The notes below the pieces were generated by a model. That model was given only the letters and a program-made list of their open reading frames with translations. It did not search any database and was not told where the DNA came from. From Barthelona sp. PCE (lineage: Eukaryota), in NCBI GenBank assembly GCA_040285745.1, contig JAUFOR010000001.1:930001-994000 (forward strand): DNA of 64,000 nt, read 5' to 3'. Shown piece by piece: positions 3,656-61,731 of this stretch. The position numbers were made by a program, and so were the translations under genes. Position 1 is the first letter of the stretch. Each line of letters begins with the position of its first letter.

Positions 3656-5167
3656 TTATGAATAATAACCTTCACTGTCAGTATAGTTATCGTCAAAACC
3701 CCAATCATCAGAATCCGGATCGCTGCTCTCATCAGGATCACTAATCTCTTCATCATAATCAACGGACTCTTTTCCGACTTCTGCGTATTCTTCTTGAAGA
3801 ATAGAGAGATTTTCACGAGCGTTAAGGAATTCTGCCTCCATATCTTCAGTACCATACCAATGTAAAAATTCTTTTTTGGAAAGCAACACTTCTGCTGCTT
3901 GATCAATGCGGTTGAAGACTTCTGCTATGGCTGTAGAGCTGGATATCATACATACAGAGCGATTTGTGTTGGAAAACATACTGTTTGGCATAGCAATAGG
4001 GTATTTATCATTATGCATTTCAGTTCTTAAGATCTGAGGACACCAGTCAACGAATTGAATAGAGTCAGAAAAGTCAGAAAGAGGAGGTACGCCTTGTAAA
4101 ACATCACCACGGTACATTAGACAGATAGAAAGGTATTTTCCCATTCGAGGATCGCACTTTGCTAAAGCTGAAGATGAGTCAAATACTGCCTTAGTTAATT
4201 CGGCTACAGACAAGTCATTGTTGAGGGCATTACTTTTAGAGATTGGAGCATAAGAAGGAAGCATGAAGTGAAGTCTAGGGTAGGCAATCAAACTCATTTC
4301 AAAACTCGAGATTGTGTTGTTGAGTGTGCCACCGTAACGCATGGATGCAGTCATAGAAGAAACATACTGACTAATCACATGGTTAAGATTAGAAATGTCG
4401 GGGTTCATAATATCAAAATTTGTTTGACAAATATCATAAATAGCATCATTATCCAGTGCAACAGAAACATTAACATGTTCAAGGAGCGTGGATGCTGTTA
4501 ATATTGCATTATACGGTTCTACAGTAGAAGCAGCATTTTTTTCAGAAGGAAAAATGGGAATAGCCATTGTGCTTTTTTTTTCGAAACTTTCTGAAAGTTT
4601 CTCGACAAGAAGAGAACCAACACCAGAACCAGTGCCACCTCCAAGAGCACTGTAAACCATGAAACCTTCTAATGAATGACACTGATCGGCGAGTTTGCGA
4701 ATCTGTTGAAGACAGTTATCGATTATTTCATCACTTAATGCACGGCTGCGGGCGTAAGAAGCGGTAGGGTCCACCACATTGCCAGATATCAATTGATCAT
4801 TGTGAAAGAGATGACGACTGGGATTACACCTTAATATATCAATCGTTTCTGGGTCTAGATCGATAAAGACAGCGCGGGGGTTGTGTTTGCCGTCAGGACT
4901 ACTTGAGAAGTGACTGCTCAATGCTTCGTAATCAGTATTATCCTTTTTATCAGGATGCATATATCCATCCTGTTGAATGCCGTGTTCAAGACAAAATAGA
5001 TCCCAACAGGCAGTTCCCGTCCGCTAAATGTGAGTATTAACAACGAAATAAGCCACATTAAGCGACTAGAATACTAAATTACAACAAAATAGTTTTAATG
5101 TCGGTTAAAATTGTTTTAAACATACAACACCTGCCCCTCCAATATGTATAGAAATGAGTTCGCTCAT
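3656..5167 (-). CDS. Divergent alpha-tubulin (exons 5167-5126 and 5023-3656; intron 5125-5024)
   Basis: Spliced N-terminus [56 protein letters not shown] motifs; GTATGT...CTCACATTTAG intron after codon 14, same position as in the canonical copies. Confidence 0.9.
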
Positions 5168-7304: not shown

Positions 7305-10300
7305 TTACATAGGGTTGTGGCACATGGGACAAGTACTAACAGCGCCCCTCAGTGATTCATGGATGTGATGGCTGCATCGCTTACATTTGTGAGTTTTTGC
7401 ATCAAACAGTGGAAGACCGCTTGCTACGCACAAGTTGAACGAAGTCTGACAGTGCTCGCATTCATGCGACAGTATATCGATCTCCTGAACGCACTTCGGG
7501 CAAGTGATCGTTTGTGATTTGGGATTTTTGGCCTGCTTGCGGCTAAACACTTGAATACCAACGTCCCTGTACACCTTCTTCATTTTTTCAGGGATTTTTT
7601 CGATTCCTTCCAGTTGGATGAGTGCTTCTGCAGCATAGCGCAGGTAACCACTGTACAAGGCACTGATAAACATTAGTGAATACACGTTTGCCTTGTAATA
7701 GTCAGGAATACTGTACTTTGTAACAATTCGTATCATACAGCTCAGAGCGTGGGGGTATTGTTCACTCATGACATGTCTGTGGGCGAGTAGGAGCAAGTGT
7801 GTGAGCTCGATTCTGTTCCAGAGAACTGTTACAGTCTCGTTGAGAGTATCGTCTTCATCAAACATGTTGTCGACTGTGAGGTTGCCAAATGAATTTGTTT
7901 TCATCACCTCGAGCCGAAGAACGGCGACAATGAGCAATTTCTTGATCTCAACGTTATTCAATAGGTGTAAATGGTTATCAACTGTTGTCATAATAAGTTT
8001 GGCAAGACGCAAATCATCTCCTGCTATCTTCGAAAGAGTGATACACTCGCGGATCTTGCCGCTTCTGATTAAGTGATCGGCAAGCTTCTCTCTGAGTAAA
8101 GATACGTTAGTTAGGCGTGTGTCGTCCTTGTACCTGTTGTACAGCTTCATTGCAAGACCCCATTGTGCGTGCTCCACGCATAAATCAACAGCCATGTTAT
8201 ACAACTCGAGTTCGATTAGGCAATCGACGGCATGTGAGATCTGGCCACTGATGAGGAACTTCTCACTAAGGTACTGGATTGTTGAGCTTGTTTTTGTCTC
8301 GAAGACAACGGGTTTGAGTTCAACCATCTTTTCAAACCTGTTCAAATAGAAGTAAGAGTCGATTAGGATGCGATATTCGGTTGAATTCTCAAGAAACTCA
8401 ACCGCCTGGGAGTACTTGCTCTTCTCAAAAAAGTACTTACCCAGGAACTCGTTGAGTTGTTGGCTCTCGAAGTTTGCCACATCAATCGCGTCCCTGCTGC
8501 TCTCGATGATCTCGTACATCCTTGAGTAATCTCCCAGCTGCTGCCTCAGTGAAAGCGCAAGATCCAATCTATCGTTGGTGAGGTACAGGCGCTCTGCAAT
8601 GTCAAAGTCACCCAAAAACGTGTATATCTTCGCCTGCAGCCTGTAATTATCCTTGATCTTATGGATAGACTTTACGAACTGTATTGATGGGTAGTCGCTG
8701 CACCTGATGAACGCCTTTAGCGCAATGTCCAAGTTCTCAACGCTAAGTGCATAACGGCCAAGCATCCTCCACAGTCTGTCGTGTGGGTTGTCATTAATGA
8801 ACTGGAACGCGTCCTTGAGTGATACCTCGTCTAACAAATGACGTGCGTCCCTTAAAGAGCGGCTTTCGATGTTGCCAAGGAGCTCGAGCGCCGGTTCGCT
8901 AGGTTTGATAAATAGTTTGTGAATTGCAATCGTTTTAACAGTAAGCTCCTCGAAGCTCAGCAGGTGATCAATAGTTTCGATTGGCTCCTCACTGCGCAGA
9001 TCCCTAATTATGTAGACGCATGACTTTTCCGTCGACGCAAACAAGTGGGGATCGTCCTTTGACCACAGCACGTTGTGCACATCCTTACGGGTAAGGTTGA
9101 GCTGGTTGACTGCAAGAGATGTGCCGACGGTGTCACCAGACTCCACGGAGTACACGAACAACATGAATCTTGTGGTGATCAACGCCAATCGAGAACCGTC
9201 GCAGTTGGCTTTTAGCGAGTATACATTCTTCCCGCTATCCAGCAAATTAATGCGGCTCTCCAGGATGTTGTGCTTGAATGAATAGAACAGAAAGACACCA
9301 CTCGCCAAGACGAGTATGGCATGCGTTTTTGTTACACACCCGTTCACGATTGGATCCTTTGTATGAGCTTGTAGAAGGTCCTCAGTGTTTGCACTGGAGA
9401 TTCCGCAGCTATCGTTGATATCTACCCAGAGTCTTGTTTTTTCCTCAAAAACAGACGCTTCGTCTTGGTCCTCGATCGTCTCGAAGCTCTTGCTCATCTC
9501 AATGTTGAACTTCCACACCAGTGCGGTGTTCTTAAAGCCCAGTAGTGCGTTATTGGCATCTGCAGAGACAAATAACGGCTTCTCGGAGATGTCAATACTG
9601 CACAGCGGAACACCAATGTTGTTGCACAGGCTCAGGAGGTACTCCGGTTTCTTGGCAGTAACGTTAACATCCACATCGTTGATTTCGACGTTGTCATCCT
9701 CAAACGCAATCGAGACATTGGGGAGCTGATTCTCTCCGCCATAAGCTTTGGTAATCACAGAATCTTTCTCGCTGAGCAGCAAAGCATATGATCCGGCGCT
9801 GTTCAGGAACTCGAGGTTACGATAGTACTTAACATTCTTCTCATCCGTCATTGTGTTCCAGAAAACAACAACGTACTCCCATTTGTTCCTTGCACTGAAC
9901 GAGTAACATAAAGTCGCGTTATTCATAGCGCAGCAGAGAGTATCGACAACAACACCTGCGAAAAAGACATGGTCGTTGACAGAATAGGCGAGACGGTGTC
10001 CGCCCGGTGAGAAAGTTATTGCTGATACAGGGTCACGGTGATTACGAACGTTGAAGATGATTTCACCCTGCTTGTTTAGGATTGCAACAAAGTGCTCCTC
10101 CGACACGGGGTTCTTCGCCGTAACCGCCAACAACTTTCCGCTAAAGTGAATTGAGCAATCGTTAACGATGAAGTCCAGTTTAGTTACGAACAAATTTGAC
10201 TTCTTCGCCGACGCCCCAAGGCTTTTTGCATCATCAAACACAAACATGTGGCCCTGGTCGTCGAATATGACGAAATGGCTCAGACCATGGTCGGTGTGTA

Positions 10301-10922
10301 AGACTTCAAACACTGTTGGATTTATGGAGCCATCTAGGGACACATCATTAGACGAAGAGATAAAGCTCATGAGCGGCACGCGGAGCACAGGGCTGCCACG
10401 GGGGTCAAGAATGATGAGGACCATATCCACAGTAAGCAGGATGATGCCCTTGCCGTCAGATGTCCAGCGAACAAAGCGTATGAGCTCAGTAAACTGTTTT
10501 TGCCACTGTCTTTTCTGCGGGAGTGCCTCGAGGACGATGGATCCGTCATCGTAGATCATGCAAATGCGGTTACCTAACGGACTCCAACAAGCATCGATGA
10601 GTGTTGCGGAGTTTAAATTGGAGTACTGCATAAACCAGTCGCCCTTTGACACGCCCCATGTTACAACGAGCCCATCGGTATCGGATGTTAGAAGCGTTTG
10701 GCGCTTATTACACCAGGCAAGTGTATCAACGACATCGTTGTGTCCATCCAACGTTACAGTTGATTTCACAAAATCACGGTCGCTGATATTATCCGATATA
10801 TAAAGGATTTTGAGAAGATTATCACCTCCTATAGCAAGGGAGCTGTGAAAGCTGTGCCAGCTCATCGTTGAGATGTGTACGCCGTCAGGCATGCGTACTT
10901 TCTTTGCGAGATACACGTACAT
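7305..10922 (-). CDS. WDR35: WD repeat protein 35 / IFT121 (IFT-A)
   Basis: MYVYLAKKV start, WD40 repeats, 'SRSLRDARHLL...FINDNPHDRLWRML', 'AFIRCSDY', C-terminal Zn ribbons CVASG and CPMCH. Confidence 0.92.
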   Translation of the reverse strand: MYVYLAKKVRMPDGVHISTMSWHSFHSSLAIGGDNLLKILYISDNISDRDFVKSTVTLDGHNDVVDTLAWCNKRQTLLTSDTDGLVVTWGVSKGDWFMQYSNLNSATLIDACWSPLGNRICMIYDDGSIVLEALPQKRQWQKQFTELIRFVRWTSDGKGIILLTVDMVLIILDPRGSPVLRVPLMSFISSSNDVSLDGSINPTVFEVLHTDHGLSHFVIFDDQGHMFVFDDAKSLGASAKKSNLFVTKLDFIVNDCSIHFSGKLLAVTAKNPVSEEHFVAILNKQGEIIFNVRNHRDPVSAITFSPGGHRLAYSVNDHVFFAGVVVDTLCCAMNNATLCYSFSARNKWEYVVVFWNTMTDEKNVKYYRNLEFLNSAGSYALLLSEKDSVITKAYGGENQLPNVSIAFEDDNVEINDVDVNVTAKKPEYLLSLCNNIGVPLCSIDISEKPLFVSADANNALLGFKNTALVWKFNIEMSKSFETIEDQDEASVFEEKTRLWVDINDSCGISSANTEDLLQAHTKDPIVNGCVTKTHAILVLASGVFLFYSFKHNILESRINLLDSGKNVYSLKANCDGSRLALITTRFMLFVYSVESGDTVGTSLAVNQLNLTRKDVHNVLWSKDDPHLFASTEKSCVYIIRDLRSEEPIETIDHLLSFEELTVKTIAIHKLFIKPSEPALELLGNIESRSLRDARHLLDEVSLKDAFQFINDNPHDRLWRMLGRYALSVENLDIALKAFIRCSDYPSIQFVKSIHKIKDNYRLQAKIYTFLGDFDIAERLYLTNDRLDLALSLRQQLGDYSRMYEIIESSRDAIDVANFESQQLNEFLGKYFFEKSKYSQAVEFLENSTEYRILIDSYFYLNRFEKMVELKPVVFETKTSSTIQYLSEKFLISGQISHAVDCLIELELYNMAVDLCVEHAQWGLAMKLYNRYKDDTRLTNVSLLREKLADHLIRSGKIRECITLSKIAGDDLRLAKLIMTTVDNHLHLLNNVEIKKLLIVAVLRLEVMKTNSFGNLTVDNMFDEDDTLNETVTVLWNRIELTHLLLLAHRHVMSEQYPHALSCMIRIVTKYSIPDYYKANVYSLMFISALYSGYLRYAAEALIQLEGIEKIPEKMKKVYRDVGIQVFSRKQAKNPKSQTITCPKCVQEIDILSHECEHCQTSFNLCVASGLPLFDAKTHKCKRCSHHIHESLRGAVSTCPMCHNPM

Positions 10923-11353
10923 TTCGGGTAGATGTGAAAAGGGGATAAAATATTGAAAACTCTTGATTGAACAAGTTTTTGAGTTCCTGTTGGCTGGCGG
11001 GAGCGTTAATTCTTTTTGTTGTGGAACCTTCATGTCACTAAACTTCTTGTTTGATGGTACAGGCTACGAAAATTCAGAGTTATCGTATTTAGTAGTATAT
11101 TGGTTATTATTGTCTCCATGTGGATAGTGATTATGTTAAATCCAATTTAAAGAATGCAATTGTTTTCCATGAGAAGATGAAGTAGGTATCGTTTTTGATG
11201 TCGTCGTACAACGACTCAATTGTACTCTTGGAAAAGTAACTCCACGAACCGATCAATTACAGGCATTGTCGCATTAAGAAGCACATCGAATCTACAAGTG
11301 TGAGCTTTTTGTTGTTCCACAAAATTTCACTTATTTCGCACATCGGAATCACC

Positions 11354-36460: not shown

Positions 36461-38460
<2,000 letters not shown>

Positions 38461-45684: not shown

Positions 45685-47685
<2,001 letters not shown>

Positions 47686-57647: not shown

Positions 57648-58304
57648 GTCAGGCAAAGCGGAAGAAATTTCAAAAGCAAGTGAGATTCACAAAATCTTCC
57701 TCTCCTCGCTTCAAAAAAACTGATGGCGCGCCTTTCTGACTAGCATGAGCACACTTATAATGCTTCAAACCAATTTAGATGAACTTCTATGTTGAAATAT
57801 TCTTAACGTTCATATTTGCTGGTCTTACGTGGTCATATGCAGGTTTTATTGGTGCAAAATCCCATGCAGCTTAAAGAAAATGTATTTTAACGAATAGAAA
57901 ATTGAGAAGCTGCTTTTATCTCTGTTGCTTATGTTTCGGCTTTTATACCTTTTTTTTGATGAAGAAGGAAGGACGAGCGATATCAATTTGACACCAGAGT
58001 CACTTTTCTCATTAATCCGGGCTTTTTTTCTTTTTTTCGGAGTTAATTTGGTTGGTTCATGCTTTGAAAACGTCAGAGCTGCATATTTACCAATAACCAT
58101 TGCAAATCAAGAATTTTTCACACAGTGAACGGTATTGCAAGAATTTTTTAGTTTTACCCACTTCATTCTGAATTTTTCTTTTTTTTTTATGGTCGCCGTG
58201 TGGGTATAATAAAGAATTATACAGAATGCGGAGTTTGTGATATTATGTAAGTATGTTTTCTTGCTATTAAGTTTTTAACTTATTTCTTGTATTACTAATT
58301 CATA

Positions 58305-59423
58305 ATGGATGCAGATACTGTCCCAACAGGCCAATACGCCGTTCTTGTTATGGGTAACAATGATGTTTACAATAATCTTACCTACTGCATTAGTTCAACT
58401 CTTAATCTCAATGATGGGAAACACCAAGCTTTTGCTGAGGACTGGATGAACGAGATCTTCGTCAACCCTTCATGCATTCTTGATGATTACGGGAATCTAC
58501 GGATTTTCCACGAAGATGGAGAAATTCTTGATTCAATCATGGAGAAAGTGGAACGTTCAGTCGCTGACATGGAGCAATACATGGGGGTTTTTGTCATCAT
58601 TGATGCTTCCAGCCCCAATCTCTCTGCTTTATTTACCTTCCTCGATAGTCTTGACCAACGGTATGGTTCTGTTGATCACCATGTTTCCAATTTATTCATT
58701 CCAGTCTATGACGAGCTTGATCACTCTGCAGCTATTAACACAGCGATGTTAGCCGAGAAGAAAAACGCTATTGTGGTTCCTGTCTCCAGAAACATCCATC
58801 GAATCAGTCATTTGATGTGTCGTATTGTCACGCATGTAATGGTAGGTTTCTGCTACGACAACTGCTCTGTGAAATCAATCGATGATCTTCGCGAAATGAT
58901 GATGGCAGGATCCAAAAATCATCGAAAAGAGGGTGACCATAGTACCACCACCAATTTTTTGACGTGTGCTTATGCCCCATACACCGCCGAGTTCGATCCT
59001 GCCTTGGATGATGAGCATTACGAACAGTACATACCCGAGCGTTGTTATGATGAGCGCAATTTGATGCTTAATCACTGCGATGCATATTCAGGTTATCTAT
59101 TTGCGCAGTTCCTTATGCTTAGCGGCATGTGTATCCCCAAATATTTCTCCAAGGGGTGGGCAAAGTGCAAAGGAAGCCGTGAGCACTATACCATCAGTGA
59201 TCACTATATCAATTGTTTCTCTGCGACACTCCACTACATCAAAAGCCACCCTGACGCGGACGGCGCTATGTTTGACTACGACAGGGATGGCTTACTGTTT
59301 ACACATAATACCGGCATGGCAGGTTTGTTTTTGAAGTTAAAAGATGTTACTGATGACGCCACGGGCGCGCGATTGCAAGCAGTGGTAGACGCATATGCAT
59401 TCTTTGATATATATACAGAGTAA
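58305..59423 (+). CDS. Highly divergent tubulin-like protein lacking the GGGTGSG loop
   Basis: Colinear with alpha-tubulin: ILDSIMEKVERSVADMEQYMGVFV ~ [33 protein letters not shown] ~ [37 protein letters not shown] ~ [27 protein letters not shown]. Confidence 0.7.
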   Translation: MDADTVPTGQYAVLVMGNNDVYNNLTYCISSTLNLNDGKHQAFAEDWMNEIFVNPSCILDDYGNLRIFHEDGEILDSIMEKVERSVADMEQYMGVFVIIDASSPNLSALFTFLDSLDQRYGSVDHHVSNLFIPVYDELDHSAAINTAMLAEKKNAIVVPVSRNIHRISHLMCRIVTHVMVGFCYDNCSVKSIDDLREMMMAGSKNHRKEGDHSTTTNFLTCAYAPYTAEFDPALDDEHYEQYIPERCYDERNLMLNHCDAYSGYLFAQFLMLSGMCIPKYFSKGWAKCKGSREHYTISDHYINCFSATLHYIKSHPDADGAMFDYDRDGLLFTHNTGMAGLFLKLKDVTDDATGARLQAVVDAYAFFDIYTE

Positions 59424-59505: not shown

Positions 59506-61731
59506 ATGGGGAAATTCCATATAGACTTCATAAAAAAGCTGTCCACTGCAAGGAATACAAGTTCTACAGAAATGTACCTCCTTTTAAGTGATATCATCAC
59601 TTCTGATGAAGATTACTCGCTGTTGGTCATCAGTGAGCAGTTTCTCAACGCAATTACCGCAATACTTCTTGAGAATGATGGGCAACTCTCTCATTTAATC
59701 ATCCTTATTGTTAAAAAGCTTGCGGGTAAGTCTCATGAGGTCCTGTCTGTGGTTGAAAGCCCCCTGTTTGAAGCGTTATTGATCGTTTCTGAAAAAACAG
59801 GCGACGAATTACTCCGATCACTCATTTTCAGTTTCATATCTCAAGCAACTGTGCACCGTGCTTGTGCAGAGCTCATGAGCCATAACCCCAAGTTCTTTGA
59901 GTTCATTGTCAGTGCCAGTATTTCCATTGAGGGTGATCATCTTCTCTCCTTACTTCAAGTTATTGAACACGTCACGGTTACAAAGCACGGCTCCATCCAA
60001 GTGTTCAACGACGCGAACTTGTTGTCTATCTTACTCAGAAGCCTTGAAGATCGTCAACACATCATTGTCGTGGCAAAATGCTTCTCACAAATTTGCCGTC
60101 ACAACTTCCTAATCAATCATAGAGTATTGGAAACTGTGCTTCAGCGGCTAGTGGCGGTCCTGACGGATTTCTCTAATGATGTGGATGTTGCAACAGCTGT
60201 AGTCACATGTCTGTGGAGCTTCTCAAAATTTACAGAGTGCGCGACGTTCCTTGTCCGCGACAGAGCATTTCTTTCGATGGCACCCGTCTTCTTAGCCAAC
60301 GTAGACCGGAAATCGCACAAATTAATTCACTCTACACTCTCTACGCTTCGCAATCTGTTGCTTCAGCCAAGCTCTCCCCTCCTTACAAACGCAGAGTGGC
60401 TGGTGCCAGTGCTAGATAGCGTTTCCAATGTACTGTGTACGAGTAGCATTGATTCATTAGATGACGAGATAGTTGTTCTATGCATCACGTTTTTGACTGG
60501 AATCAGTGAGAATCCTGCCATTGCACGAACATTGTTGCACTCGGACCCACTGTTTAAGATGTTCAGCATGTTATTTGAACGGTCGATCAACTACTTCAAG
60601 ACTGTGGGTGAACTCGAGCCAGACGATCAGAACGCTTTGTATATTCCACGTATCCTTAAGCTGTTCTATAACTTAAGTCTGCTAGTGAGCGCAAAGGAGC
60701 TTGACAATCAAAGGAAGAGACTTTTCTCAAATAACTTGATAGGGTTCTACAGTGAACTGCTTGTGCATACAGTACAAATTCTTTTAAATGATAAGAAACC
60801 TCAGTTTGACCGCAAATTCTGCTTAATAGTACTGCATTTACTTACTTCCCTTATGTACTCGATATCATTCATAGCGGAGATAGTGCCAAAGTTTATCAAG
60901 ATTTCTGGACTATATAGGTCTCTATTACGGGTTATAGCCTCACTCCTCGAGGACAATTCAAGTGTTATTGCGATTTTCAGACTTGCAAACCTGGACCATA
61001 ACGAGTTTACTCGAAAAACATTTGTAATTTTGCTCAATTTGAGTCATAACCCAATGACATGTCACCAACTGTTCCAAGAATCTACAGTACTCACTTTCTT
61101 ACATCAAACACTGGAGTATGTGGAACATCCGAACGATCTGACACGGGCGCTGCCTAATATCAGCTCTCTCCTGTTGGGAATCTTCCAGAACATAGCGTCT
61201 GAGCGCAACGGTGCCGCAAGGCTTGCAAGTCCGGGATTTTTTTTGCGGTTATCAAGATTCTTGAAATCCGATACAGGTGCTGCTGTTAATGCGGCAGGAA
61301 CTATGTACAACATCATGCTGCACTCGCCTGAGACGGGAAGCACGTTCGTACAGTACGATGAGTGTGTTGAAAACATAGCAACAGTGCTACACGCTTCGAA
61401 AAACACACCTGCTGCCCTAATCAGGAATGTGTGTCTTCTACTCCACTCGCTAACGACAGATATCCGCGCTGGTTATGAGCTGAGTACTAACACAATGATA
61501 TATTCAGGGCTAATATTCTGCTGCACGTTTTTTGAGGAATCTGTGCAGAGGTTGGCGGGAGAAACCCTGTTAAGGTTGGCTGAGGCACAATCTGTGCTTG
61601 GAAGGACGAAGGGCTCAAGTATAGTGAACCGCAAACAGCTCATGTCAGCGCTTGACGTACTCCTCAACAGCAATGATCCCAGCATAAGAAAGAGCGCGCT
61701 TGATCATATTATTACTCTAAACGAAATGTAA
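59506..61731 (+). CDS. Armadillo/HEAT-repeat protein
   Basis: Leu-rich helical repeats with ARM-like LWSFS, LRNL, LFYNLS, LLNLS, FQNIA, MYNI. Confidence 0.7.
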   Translation: MGKFHIDFIKKLSTARNTSSTEMYLLLSDIITSDEDYSLLVISEQFLNAITAILLENDGQLSHLIILIVKKLAGKSHEVLSVVESPLFEALLIVSEKTGDELLRSLIFSFISQATVHRACAELMSHNPKFFEFIVSASISIEGDHLLSLLQVIEHVTVTKHGSIQVFNDANLLSILLRSLEDRQHIIVVAKCFSQICRHNFLINHRVLETVLQRLVAVLTDFSNDVDVATAVVTCLWSFSKFTECATFLVRDRAFLSMAPVFLANVDRKSHKLIHSTLSTLRNLLLQPSSPLLTNAEWLVPVLDSVSNVLCTSSIDSLDDEIVVLCITFLTGISENPAIARTLLHSDPLFKMFSMLFERSINYFKTVGELEPDDQNALYIPRILKLFYNLSLLVSAKELDNQRKRLFSNNLIGFYSELLVHTVQILLNDKKPQFDRKFCLIVLHLLTSLMYSISFIAEIVPKFIKISGLYRSLLRVIASLLEDNSSVIAIFRLANLDHNEFTRKTFVILLNLSHNPMTCHQLFQESTVLTFLHQTLEYVEHPNDLTRALPNISSLLLGIFQNIASERNGAARLASPGFFLRLSRFLKSDTGAAVNAAGTMYNIMLHSPETGSTFVQYDECVENIATVLHASKNTPAALIRNVCLLLHSLTTDIRAGYELSTNTMIYSGLIFCCTFFEESVQRLAGETLLRLAEAQSVLGRTKGSSIVNRKQLMSALDVLLNSNDPSIRKSALDHIITLNEM

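What the first reader, a model, noticed from the sequence alone, without database searches (positions are those of the whole stretch)
58305..59423. Pseudo-GTPase tubulin-like protein
Seen: colinear similarity to alpha-tubulin from the helix H3 region to the C-terminal helices, but the position of GGGTGSG reads ASSPNLS, the N-terminal nucleotide loops are shortened and there is no acidic tail; the 372-aa frame is intact. Known: tubulin families keep the glycine-rich signature, and misato/Dml1 is a known divergent relative. Inference: a nucleotide-free alpha-derived tubulin, the third tier of tubulin divergence in this window.
Basis: partly seen in the sequence, partly recalled or inferred. Interest (0 to 1): 0.7.

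Follow-up and report, generated by a model that had tools for sequence, protein, structure and literature searches.

The report
Degenerate tubulin-like gene without GTP loops
An intact gene in a very small protist genome encodes a protein whose rear third still resembles tubulin while every glycine-rich GTP-binding motif is gone, so it is probably a tubulin copy turned non-enzymatic, though the evidence is only statistical and modest.

Summary
The 372-codon ORF at 58305-59423 (+) is real and intact, with normal codon bias. It has no GG or GxG anywhere and no acidic tail.

Residues 217-347 resemble the tubulin C-terminal (intermediate) domain:
- Pfam Tubulin_C is the only family hit for the C-half, at E 0.039 and below the cut-off.
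- An alpha-tubulin HMM that I built gives 18.0 bits. The best of 2000 shuffles gives 8.1.
- Among 162 window ORFs the target scores 15.7 bits. The next non-tubulin scores 4.3.

The N-terminal 216 residues give only a marginal colinear signal, and it depends on gap penalties.

Structure prediction failed: pLDDT was 41.7 for the single sequence and 38.3 with a tubulin alignment. No homologue was found in 1.8 billion representatives. The databases also lack close relatives of this organism, so orphan status says little. No RNA run was listed.

A DHH-phosphodiesterase hit (E 0.007-0.015) is at noise level.

Verdict: probably (about 0.55) a strongly degenerated, alpha-like tubulin paralogue that cannot bind GTP in the usual way. 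Function is inferred, not shown. This is a new variant of a known kind, of moderate interest.

The parts
58305..59423 (+). Intact ORF of 372 codons plus stop: the gene
   Evidence: ORF. (in-frame codon bias +0.164 bits per codon; P of an open frame about 4e-10). (the same 372-aa protein is present in public collections).
58305..58952 (+). Residues 1-216: an alpha/beta N-terminal half. It is possibly a degenerate tubulin GTPase domain with deletions. Assignment is uncertain.
   Evidence: No Pfam family at E<=10. The lenient semiglobal alignment to alpha-tubulin profile columns 1-265 scores 28.0 bits: 5 of 600 shuffles and 0 of 50 real 216-aa control segments reach it. The signal is lost at stricter gap penalties. 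The low-confidence AF2 model shows alternating strand/helix elements between residues 65 and 160.
58602..58625 (+). Residues 100-107 (DASSPNLS), sitting where the tubulin T4 signature GGGTGSG would lie. It contains no glycine.
   Evidence: HMMER local alignment. Semiglobal alignment. Motif scan. The placement rests on alignments that are not significant by themselves.
58953..59345 (+). Residues 217-347: tubulin C-terminal (intermediate) domain-like segment. It corresponds to alpha-tubulin positions about 266-393 (strand S7 to the start of helix H11; element names recalled from the tubulin structure literature).
   Evidence: BLASTP against the window's alpha-tubulin: 28.5 bits, E 3e-4, 31/139 identical. 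hhalign: E 0.0026, probability 11.6 %. Pfam PF03953: E 0.039, 14.6 bits, sole hit. My alpha HMM: 18.0 bits, with the best of 2000 shuffles at 8.1. Semiglobal z of 4.8-9.9 at all 5 gap settings. 0 of 71 real control segments reach it.
59346..59420 (+). Residues 348-372: short C-terminal end. About 45 residues of tubulin H11-H12 have no aligned counterpart, and there is no acidic E-hook.
   Evidence: hmmalign leaves profile positions 394-452 unmatched. No D/E run is present.
58251..58314 (+). Intron-like string overlapping the start codon: GTATGT ... TTTTTAAC ... TACTAAT ... CAG. Status unknown.
   Evidence: Read. It resembles the introns of the two tubulin genes. I found no in-frame upstream exon by eye. 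No RNA data were available.

Best explanation
WHAT IT IS
- The gene encodes a strongly degenerated paralogue of tubulin, most likely of alpha-tubulin.
- It keeps a recognisable C-terminal (intermediate) domain at residues 217-347.
- It probably also keeps a shrunken Rossmann-like N-terminal domain.
- It has lost the glycine-rich T4 signature.
- By alignment it has also lost the T3 loop, much of helix H7 with T7 and H8, most of H11-H12, and the acidic tail.

WHAT IS SHOWN
- The ORF is intact and has normal codon bias.
- The motifs are absent.
- Residues 217-347 show above-chance similarity to tubulin.

WHAT IS INFERRED
- The N-half descends from the GTPase domain.
- The protein does not bind or hydrolyse GTP and cannot activate hydrolysis in a neighbouring subunit.
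- The ORF has been kept open and codon-adapted in a 10.2-Mb streamlined genome, so the gene is probably functional.
- My preferred mechanism, at about 0.3 on its own, is a nucleotide-independent tubulin-fold subunit. It would use the retained intermediate-domain surface (M-loop and the S7-S10 sheet) to bind canonical tubulin or microtubular structures of the flagellar apparatus, as a static structural or regulatory component rather than a dynamic polymer former.
For: SEQUENCE SIMILARITY OF THE C-HALF
- Pfam scan of residues 201-372 returns one family out of 24,736, Tubulin_C: E 0.039, residues 217-297 against profile 4-82 of 126.
- My HMM, built from 30 alpha-tubulins (A1), gives the C-half 18.0 bits, P 6.5e-8. 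The best of 2000 shuffled C-halves gives 8.1 bits.
- The same HMM run over all 162 stop-to-stop ORFs of at least 80 aa in the window ranks the target directly after the tubulin genes, at 15.7 bits and E 5e-5. The next ORF scores 4.3 bits.
- BLASTP against the window's own alpha-tubulin gives E 3e-4 over 139 residues.
- hhalign finds the same register at E 0.0026.
- Semiglobal profile alignment of the C-half gives z 4.8-9.9 at all five gap settings. 0 of 71 real-protein control segments reach it.

DOMAIN ORDER AND THE N-HALF
- The domain order is right. The best local N-half matches found by two programs lie on the same colinear diagonal, at H3-S4 and at H4-S5.
- The lenient semiglobal N-half score is reached by 5 of 600 shuffles and by 0 of 50 real segments.

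STRUCTURE LEAD
- The Atlas's own ESM model has tubulin alpha, misato and a Tubulin/FtsZ cluster as 3 of its first 4 structural neighbours, with TM 0.48, 0.48 and 0.42. The model has pLDDT 0.37, so this is a lead only.

GENE REALITY AND CONTEXT
- Gene reality.
- The same contig carries canonical and divergent alpha-tubulin genes.
- The genome is reported as 10.2 Mb, the smallest known for a free-living eukaryote (passages of PMC11316075).
Against: WEAK OR MISSING SEQUENCE SUPPORT
- Full-length Pfam scan finds 0 families at E<=10.
- Tubulin_C scores 14.6 bits, below its 26.6-bit cut-off.
- hhalign probability is only 11.6 %.
- phmmer of the C-half against the PDB lists no tubulin at E<=10. Its single hit is a formyltetrahydrofolate deformylase at E 1.1.
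- No Tubulin (PF00091) match exists for the N-half.
- hmmalign treats the whole N-half as an insertion.

FRAGILE N-HALF SIGNAL
- The N-half signal vanishes at 3 of 5 gap settings.
- A wrong-domain control reached z 2.4.
- After MAFFT --add, the count of matches to conserved tubulin columns is not above shuffles: 60 against a mean of 53.9, sd 5.0 and maximum 67 over 100 shuffles.

CHANCE-LEVEL HITS OF COMPARABLE RAW P-VALUE
- DHH phosphodiesterase TM1595, E 0.007-0.015.
- Csn2, E 0.0075.
- phrog_6550, E 0.005.
- An SdrD-B repeat protein, E 2.4e-5, summed over 11 repeats.

STRUCTURE PREDICTION
- AlphaFold2 gave pLDDT 41.7 for the single sequence and 38.3 even with a 31-row tubulin alignment. It drew the C-half mostly helical.
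- Foldseek gave nothing at E<=0.001.
- VIA-align gave only generic alpha/beta matches with Z<=6.5. BtubA was at rank 16 and TubZ at rank 24, tied with many unrelated folds.

There are no orthologues, no expression data and no functional data.
Confidence: 0.55

Rival explanations
1. Unrelated lineage-specific orphan. The protein has no evolutionary link to tubulin, and the C-terminal resemblance is a chance match of the kind any orphan produces when scanned against many libraries.
For: - The library-wide E-value for Tubulin_C is only 0.039, obtained on one of several fragment scans.
- Four other unrelated families hit at similar or better library-wide E-values.
- hhalign probability is 11.6 %.
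- Neither AlphaFold2 run produced a tubulin fold.
- There are no homologues at all.
Against: - The tubulin match spans 130 residues in the correct domain position.
- It is found by BLASTP, HMMER with two different profiles, and hhalign, all in the same register.
- It stands 10 bits above 2000 shuffles and 11 bits above every other non-tubulin ORF of the window.
- The rival hits are short, repeat-inflated, or limited to one member of a family whose Pfam profile does not match.
- An independent language-model structure also points to tubulin-superfamily clusters.
Confidence: 0.17
2. Chimera. A genuine tubulin C-terminal-type domain (217-347) is joined to an N-terminal alpha/beta domain of different origin, so the N-half is not a decayed GTPase domain.
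For: - Only the C-half is statistically supported.
- hmmalign leaves residues 1-216 unaligned.
- The N-half signal depends on gap penalties.
- The N-half attracts weak hits to other alpha/beta families: DHH phosphodiesterase residues 95-206 and generic Rossmann or Rab-like folds.
Against: - As far as I recall, no Tubulin_C domain is known outside the tubulin/FtsZ architecture.
- The N-half has roughly the right length: 216 residues against about 265.
- Its best local matches fall on the colinear diagonal in two programs.
- 0 of 50 real segments and 5 of 600 shuffles reach its lenient colinear score.
Confidence: 0.13
3. Decaying tubulin duplicate without function. The gene would be a relic still open by luck or only recently released from selection.
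For: - The window shows active tubulin gene duplication: two 99.7 % identical alpha copies, one with three frame-breaking single-base indels.
- The target has lost nearly all functional motifs.
- No orthologue or expression evidence is available.
Against: - At about 20 % identity to alpha-tubulin the divergence is far too deep for neutral decay to have left 372 codons open. P is about 4e-10 by composition.
- Codon usage in frame is as good as that of the neighbouring genes.
- The genome is reported to be highly streamlined (passages of PMC11316075).
Confidence: 0.08
4. DHH/DHHA1-type phosphoesterase relative (NrnA/TM1595-like). The D100 and D124-H125-H126 residues would be remnants of motifs II and III.
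For: - phmmer against the PDB gives TM1595 phosphodiesterase at E 0.015 for the full protein and 0.0069 for the N-half. It covers residues 95-206 against 80-187 and aligns 'DASSP' and 'DHH'.
- The protein length (372 aa) is close to the 338 aa of TM1595.
Against: - Only this one protein, as two sequence variants, is hit at E<=10. I recall many DHH-family entries in the PDB.
- The Pfam DHH profile PF01368 gives no hit at E<=10.
- E. coli RecJ gives nothing (E 3.3) and pairs a different tripeptide with its DHH.
- No GGGH motif of DHHA1 is present.
- The E-value is in the range of the Csn2 and phrog_6550 chance hits on the same half.
- The C-half matches tubulin instead.
Confidence: 0.04

Closest known systems
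Alpha-tubulin (canonical; the window's own copy at 36536-37941, minus strand)
   Same: - The two domains come in the same order.
- Residues 217-347 align without large gaps to alpha-tubulin positions 266-393, including the YAP, CD..G, LM..G and PK positions.
- The alpha profile scores higher than the generic Tubulin_C model.
- The S9-S10 loop has the alpha-type length in the alignment. That beta-tubulin is shorter there is recalled, not tested.
   Different: - Identity is about 22 % in the aligned part.
- There is no GGGTGSG or any GG or GxG.
- The T3 region and the H7/T7/H8 region have no aligned counterpart.
- About 45 C-terminal residues and the acidic tail are missing.
- There is no intron after codon 14, unlike both tubulin genes of the window.
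- PF00091 does not match.
Misato / DML1 (divergent eukaryotic tubulin relative)
   Same: - It is a tubulin-related protein too divergent for ordinary tubulin trees (passages of PMC9871819).
- A misato cluster is the second structural neighbour of the Atlas model, at TM 0.48.
   Different: - The misato Pfam models PF10644 and PF14881 give no hit at E<=10, whereas PF03953 does.
- Misato proteins in the Atlas cluster are about 569 aa, against 372 aa here.
- Misato is described as having motif extensions, whereas this protein has deletions.
The window's divergent alpha-like tubulin (P0003, 3656-about 5170, minus strand)
   Same: - It is on the same contig.
- It is a tubulin paralogue specific to this lineage as far as the databases show. 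Its best non-self hits are 44-49 % identical alpha-tubulins.
   Different: - P0003 passes both Pfam tubulin models (E 4e-37 and 2e-27).
- It keeps GGGTGSG and the conserved intron position.
- It has a long acidic, serine-rich tail.
- The target is far more degenerate, and it is less similar to P0003 (E 0.46) than to canonical alpha-tubulin.
DHH/DHHA1 phosphodiesterase TM1595 (PDB 5o1u, 5o4z)
   Same: A local match of residues 95-206, including a DASSP pentapeptide and a DHH tripeptide, at E 0.007-0.015.
   Different: There is no match to the DHH family profile, no DHHA1 motif, no match to RecJ, and the C-half resembles tubulin.

Membership tests
Tubulin/FtsZ superfamily | N-terminal GTPase domain recognised by Pfam PF00091 | tested here: not met
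   No hit at E<=10 for the full protein, for residues 1-216 or for residues 76-216. My alpha-tubulin HMM gives the N-half -0.9 bits.
Tubulin/FtsZ superfamily | Glycine-rich T4 signature [SAG]-G-G-T-G-[SA]-G | tested here: not met
   0 matches. There is also no GG or GxG anywhere in the 372 residues.
Tubulin/FtsZ superfamily | C-terminal (intermediate) domain recognised by Pfam PF03953 at its gathering score (26.6 bits) | tested here: inconclusive
   It is the sole Pfam hit of the C-half, but at 14.6 bits and E 0.039, below the cut-off. My alpha-specific HMM gives 18.0 bits, P 6.5e-8, with 0 of 2000 shuffles reaching it.
Tubulin/FtsZ superfamily | Colinear two-domain architecture (GTPase domain, core helix H7, intermediate domain) | tested here: inconclusive
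   The order and approximate lengths fit, and the local N-half matches lie on the colinear diagonal. About 22 residues are missing where H7/T7/H8 should be, and the N-half signal depends on parameters.
Tubulin/FtsZ superfamily | T7 loop and H8 acidic residue that activates GTP hydrolysis in the neighbouring subunit | tested here: not met
   Profile positions about 241-265 have no aligned target residues in either the semiglobal or the HMMER alignment. The pattern G..N.D gives 0 matches.
Tubulin/FtsZ superfamily | Tubulin fold in three dimensions | tested here: inconclusive
   AF2 gave pLDDT 41.7 and 38.3. Foldseek gave nothing at E<=0.001. VIA-align listed BtubA at Z 5.4 and TubZ at Z 5.3 among many unrelated ties. 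The Atlas ESM model (pLDDT 0.37) has tubulin-superfamily clusters as neighbours at TM 0.42-0.48.
Alpha-tubulin family | Acidic C-terminal tail (E-hook) | tested here: not met
   There is no run of 4 or more D/E, and the protein ends about 45 residues short in the alignment.
Alpha-tubulin family | Closer to alpha than to the other tubulin classes in a phylogeny | not tested
There is only indirect support: the alpha HMM scores 18.0 bits against 14.6 for the generic model.
Misato/DML1 | Pfam PF10644 (Misat_Tub_SegII) and PF14881 (Tubulin_3) | tested here: not met
   Neither is listed at E<=10 in any scan. The Atlas structural neighbour at TM 0.48 is only a lead.
DHH phosphoesterase family | Pfam PF01368 match with motifs I-IV (DxD, D, DHH, D), plus the DHHA1 GGGH motif | tested here: not met
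   PF01368 gives no hit at E<=10. A DHH tripeptide is present at 124-126, but there is no GGGH and no N-terminal DxD in a strand context. RecJ comparison gives E 3.3. Only TM1595 of the PDB is matched.

The most novel reading that the evidence does not exclude
This would be a 'pseudo-tubulin': a tubulin-fold protein that has discarded the whole nucleotide pocket, the T7 activating loop and the motor and MAP-binding helices, yet is maintained by selection in the smallest known genome of a free-living eukaryote. It would work as a non-exchanging, GTP-independent building block or cap of microtubule-based structures, such as flagellar roots or basal-body-associated arrays. That would make it a second, independent example, besides misato, of a tubulin turned into a non-GTPase, and one that arose from alpha-tubulin itself.
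Probability: 0.3. Interest if true: 0.7.

Novelty: new variant of a known kind. Interest (0 to 1): 0.45.

Why it matters
Tubulins are among the most constrained proteins known, and every accepted eukaryotic class keeps the GTP pocket. In the passages I read of Findeisen et al. 2014 (PMC4202323), six classes are recognised. Misato is treated as a separate, very divergent relative (PMC9871819).

A selected tubulin descendant with no nucleotide loops would show that the fold can be reused without GTP. It would also give a natural minimal version for asking which tubulin surfaces suffice for lattice or partner binding.

It sits in a deep-branching metamonad with a 10.2-Mb genome. Retention there argues for a real cellular role. 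It also illustrates how far paralogues can drift beyond the reach of standard annotation: it has no Pfam hit as a whole protein.

My full-text searches found nothing describing such a protein:
- 'GGGTGSG' plus 'divergent tubulin': 0 papers.
- 'tubulin' plus 'pseudo-GTPase': 7 papers, none about a tubulin judging by title and abstract.
- The word 'tubulin' occurs 0 times in the main text of the genome paper. Its supplements were not examined.

Tried and rejected
HOMOLOGUE SEARCHES
- The word-indexed search found only the protein itself among 1318 candidates.
- The exhaustive HMMER search of 1.84 billion representatives found the protein itself plus one bacterial SdrD-B repeat protein. That score is the sum of 11 copies of a 35-residue motif, so I rejected it as repeat-inflated chance.
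- Genome-contig scan with the target found none. The scan with EF-2 also found none.
- Metagenome-contig scan with the target found none.
- The scan with the neighbouring Ca-ATPase, run to look for synteny, found 10 loci at 36-46 % identity on contigs of 4.5 kb or less. None is a close relative, so they were not used.
- IFT121 of the window finds only itself at E<=1e-20. The databases therefore hold no close relative of this organism, and the target's orphan status is uninformative.

EXPRESSION AND EARLIER NOTES
- No RNA holder was listed, so no reads could be laid.
- No whole genome is held for the window.
- Earlier notes of this scan returned nothing.

STRUCTURE
- The AF2 single-sequence run and the run with a 31-row tubulin alignment both gave low confidence. 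The second run is in any case not independent of the hypothesis.
- Foldseek against the PDB and VIA-align wide gave no discriminating match.
- The Atlas feature search gave scores of 0.78 or less for the whole protein. For the C-part, the best named cluster was Tubulin_2 at 0.75. Shuffled proteins reach 0.8 or more a third of the time, so I do not count this as evidence.

ALIGNMENT STATISTICS
- MAFFT global identity (22-25 %) was rejected as a statistic, because shuffled sequences do equally well.

OTHER FAMILIES
- The DHH, Csn2 and phrog_6550 hits were judged to be noise.

NOT RUN
- No complex prediction was run. No beta-tubulin of this organism was available, and the target has no alignment.
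- For the same reason, no phylogeny against beta, gamma, delta, epsilon tubulin or misato was made.
Full report
THE LOCUS

The window is an intron-poor eukaryotic chromosome segment. It carries flagellar and cytoskeletal genes: IFT121, a dynein heavy chain C-terminus, Vps4, XRN, EF-2, a P-type Ca-ATPase and tubulins. A protein encoded elsewhere on the same 1,334,541-bp contig is named by NCBI as a hypothetical protein of Barthelona sp. PCE. In the passages I read of PMC11316075, this deep-branching metamonad has a 10.2-Mb genome, described as the smallest known for a free-living eukaryote.

The finding's ORF (58305-59423, plus strand, 372 aa) is intact. The same 372-aa protein is present in public collections. 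Its in-frame codon usage is +0.164 bits per codon, against -0.28 and -0.81 in the other frames, while 21 other ORFs of the window span 0.044-0.469. An open frame of this length has a probability of about 4e-10 at local composition. It is therefore a real coding gene.

The glycine-rich tubulin signature is indeed absent. The protein has 19 glycines but no GG and no GxG. There is no acidic tail.

The claimed colinear similarity to alpha-tubulin is real and above chance for the C-terminal third:
- BLASTP against the window's own alpha-tubulin aligns residues 218-356 with 232-367 of that ORF: 31/139 identical, 28.5 bits, pairwise E 3e-4.
- hhalign against a 30-sequence alpha-tubulin alignment (A1) finds the same register, 217-347 against 266-393, at E 0.0026 but only 11.6 % probability.
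- A Pfam scan of the whole protein finds nothing at E<=10. A scan of residues 201-372 alone returns exactly one family, Tubulin_C (PF03953): E 0.039, 14.6 bits, below the 26.6-bit cut-off.
- An HMM that I built from A1 gives the C-half 18.0 bits (P 6.5e-8). The best of 2000 shuffled C-halves gives 8.1 bits.
- Run over all 162 stop-to-stop ORFs of at least 80 aa in the window, the HMM ranks the target immediately after the tubulin genes, at 15.7 bits and E 5e-5. The next ORF scores 4.3 bits.
- A semiglobal profile alignment of my own gives z 4.8-9.9 at all five gap settings. 0 of 71 real-protein control segments reach the score.

THE N-TERMINAL 216 RESIDUES ARE MUCH LESS CLEAR

- No Pfam family matches.
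- HMMER's best local match is target 73-105 against profile 113-144, the H3-S4 region. It places 'ASSPN' opposite 'avGGG' and scores -1.4 bits, P about 0.04.
- hhalign's best is 113-143 against 154-180, at E 0.42.
- Both lie on the colinear diagonal next to each other.
- hmmalign treats the whole N-half as an insertion.
- My lenient semiglobal alignment scores 28.0 bits. 5 of 600 shuffles reach it and 0 of 50 real 216-aa segments from 19 other window proteins do. It strings together plausible landmarks: PSCILDD with [14 protein letters not shown] with YRQLFHPE, the H3-S4 block, an RYG/DYG pairing, and YDN with LDN.
- The signal is present at only two of five gap settings (z 3.1-3.2). It vanishes at the three stricter ones. 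A wrong-domain control reached z 2.4.
- A count of matches to conserved tubulin columns after MAFFT --add is no better than shuffles: 60 against a mean of 53.9 and a maximum of 67 over 100 shuffles. The 22-25 % identity of the MAFFT alignment therefore carries no weight.

RIVAL SIGNALS

- phmmer against the PDB gives one protein, the DHH/DHHA1 phosphodiesterase TM1595, at E 0.015 for the full protein and 0.0069 for the N-half. It aligns a DASSP pentapeptide and a DHH tripeptide.
- I judge this to be noise for five reasons. No other DHH-family chain is listed at E<=10. The Pfam DHH profile does not match. E. coli RecJ gives E 3.3 in a different register. There is no DHHA1 GGGH motif. The same half also draws unrelated hits at the same level: Csn2 at E 0.0075 and phrog_6550 at E 0.005.
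- The only non-self hit in 1.84 billion representatives is a bacterial SdrD-B repeat protein. Its score sums 11 copies of a 35-residue motif.
- These hits set the noise floor. They are a reminder that the library-wide significance of the Tubulin_C hit (E 0.039) is modest.
- The tubulin signal differs from them in four ways: its length (130 residues), its correct domain position, its recovery by four methods in one register, and its margin over shuffles and over real ORFs.

STRUCTURE

- AlphaFold2 on the single sequence gave pLDDT 41.7. It showed an alternating strand/helix pattern between residues 65 and 160 and an unconvincing all-helical C-half.
- Foldseek found nothing at E<=0.001.
- VIA-align against 48,161 chains gave only generic alpha/beta matches at Z<=6.5. 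BtubA (Z 5.4, 138 aligned) and TubZ (Z 5.3) were tied with many unrelated folds.
- A second AlphaFold2 run with the target aligned to 30 tubulins is a test biased towards tubulin. It still gave pLDDT 38.3 and pTM 0.28. This is no support, and a mild warning.
- The Atlas's own ESM model (pLDDT 0.37) has tubulin alpha (TM 0.48), misato (0.48) and a Tubulin/FtsZ cluster (0.42) among its first four neighbours. That is a lead, not a test.

RELATIVES AND EXPRESSION

- No homologue was found anywhere.
- This says little, because even IFT121 of this window finds only itself at E<=1e-20. No close relative of the organism is in the collections.
- No RNA run was listed.
- A synteny attempt through the neighbouring Ca-ATPase gave only distant homologues on short contigs.

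INTERPRETATION

The most economical reading, with confidence about 0.55, is a strongly degenerated tubulin paralogue.
- It is probably alpha-derived. The alpha HMM beats the generic model. Canonical alpha beats the window's divergent paralogue. The S9-S10 loop has alpha length in the alignment; the beta comparison is recalled.
- By alignment it lacks T3, the T4 signature, about 22 residues around H7/T7/H8, most of H11-H12, and the E-hook.
- From established knowledge of tubulin (recalled: the T1-T6 loops bind the nucleotide, T7/H8 activates hydrolysis in the next subunit, H11-H12 and the tail bind motors and MAPs), such a protein should neither bind GTP nor drive dynamic assembly.
- I infer a nucleotide-independent structural or regulatory role through the retained intermediate-domain surface. 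This functional step is inference only.

The rivals, with my confidence in each:
- Chance resemblance in an unrelated orphan: 0.17.
- A Tubulin_C-type domain joined to an unrelated N-domain: 0.13.
- A functionless relic: 0.08. This is disfavoured by the open frame and the codon bias.
- A DHH-type enzyme: 0.04.

COMPARISON WITH WHAT IS KNOWN

- It fails the defining tests of tubulin-family membership: PF00091, the signature and T7.
- It only approaches the Tubulin_C model.
- It does not match the misato models.
- It is best described as a new, extreme variant within the tubulin superfamily rather than a member of any named class.
- My literature searches found no description of a tubulin lacking all nucleotide loops. 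Findeisen et al. 2014 recognise six classes (passages), and PMC9871819 treats misato as the separate divergent relative (passages).
- I did not examine supplements of the genome paper. They might list this gene.

Noticed in passing
window 36536-37941 (-) and 46205-47610 (+): There are two alpha-tubulin gene copies in inverted orientation, 99.7 % identical over 1790 bp. Copy A is intact. Copy B carries three single-base indels: at 46451, at 46653 and, by my reading of the frame change, near 47330. These split it into three ORF pieces. This could be residual homopolymer errors of a long-read assembly in a repeat, or a very young pseudogene.
   Followed up: partly
window 3656-about 5170 (-): A divergent alpha-like tubulin (P0003, annotated at 469 aa) is only 44-49 % identical to other alpha-tubulins. 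It passes both Pfam tubulin models, keeps GGGTGSG, and has the intron at the same position as alpha-tubulin. By reading, its T3 and T7 regions are altered, and it has a long Asp/Ser-rich tail.
   Followed up: partly
window 37853-37898 (-) and 5024-5128 (-): Both tubulin genes have a short intron after codon 14, starting GTATGT and ending CACATTTAG. This fits the remark in Findeisen et al. 2014 (passage) that intron-poor species tend to keep an intron at the N-terminus of alpha-tubulin genes.
   Followed up: no
window 58245-58314 (+): Just upstream of the target's ATG, and overlapping it, is an intron-like string: ATG-TAA, GTATGT at 58251, TTTTTAAC at 58272, TACTAAT at 58293, and CAG ending at 58314. 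If it is spliced, the start codon at 58305 would be removed, and Met16 would be the next in-frame start. I found no in-frame upstream exon by eye.
   Followed up: partly
window 59506-61731 (+): The downstream neighbour, 82 bp after the target's stop, is a 741-aa protein with only a sub-threshold Ric8/synembryn (armadillo-like) match at E 1.9e-5. No functional link to the target is evident.
   Followed up: no
window 7305-11033 (-): IFT121/WDR35 has strong Pfam matches yet finds only itself at E<=1e-20 in the 5.8-billion-protein collection. This shows how poorly this lineage is sampled and how divergent its proteins are.
   Followed up: partly
window 59238-59351 (+), residues 312-349: This stretch resembles the start of bacterial SdrD-B (calcium-binding beta-sandwich) repeats at 38-45 % identity over 33-40 residues. 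I judged it a chance motif match. It lies outside the part matched by Pfam Tubulin_C (residues 217-297).
   Followed up: yes
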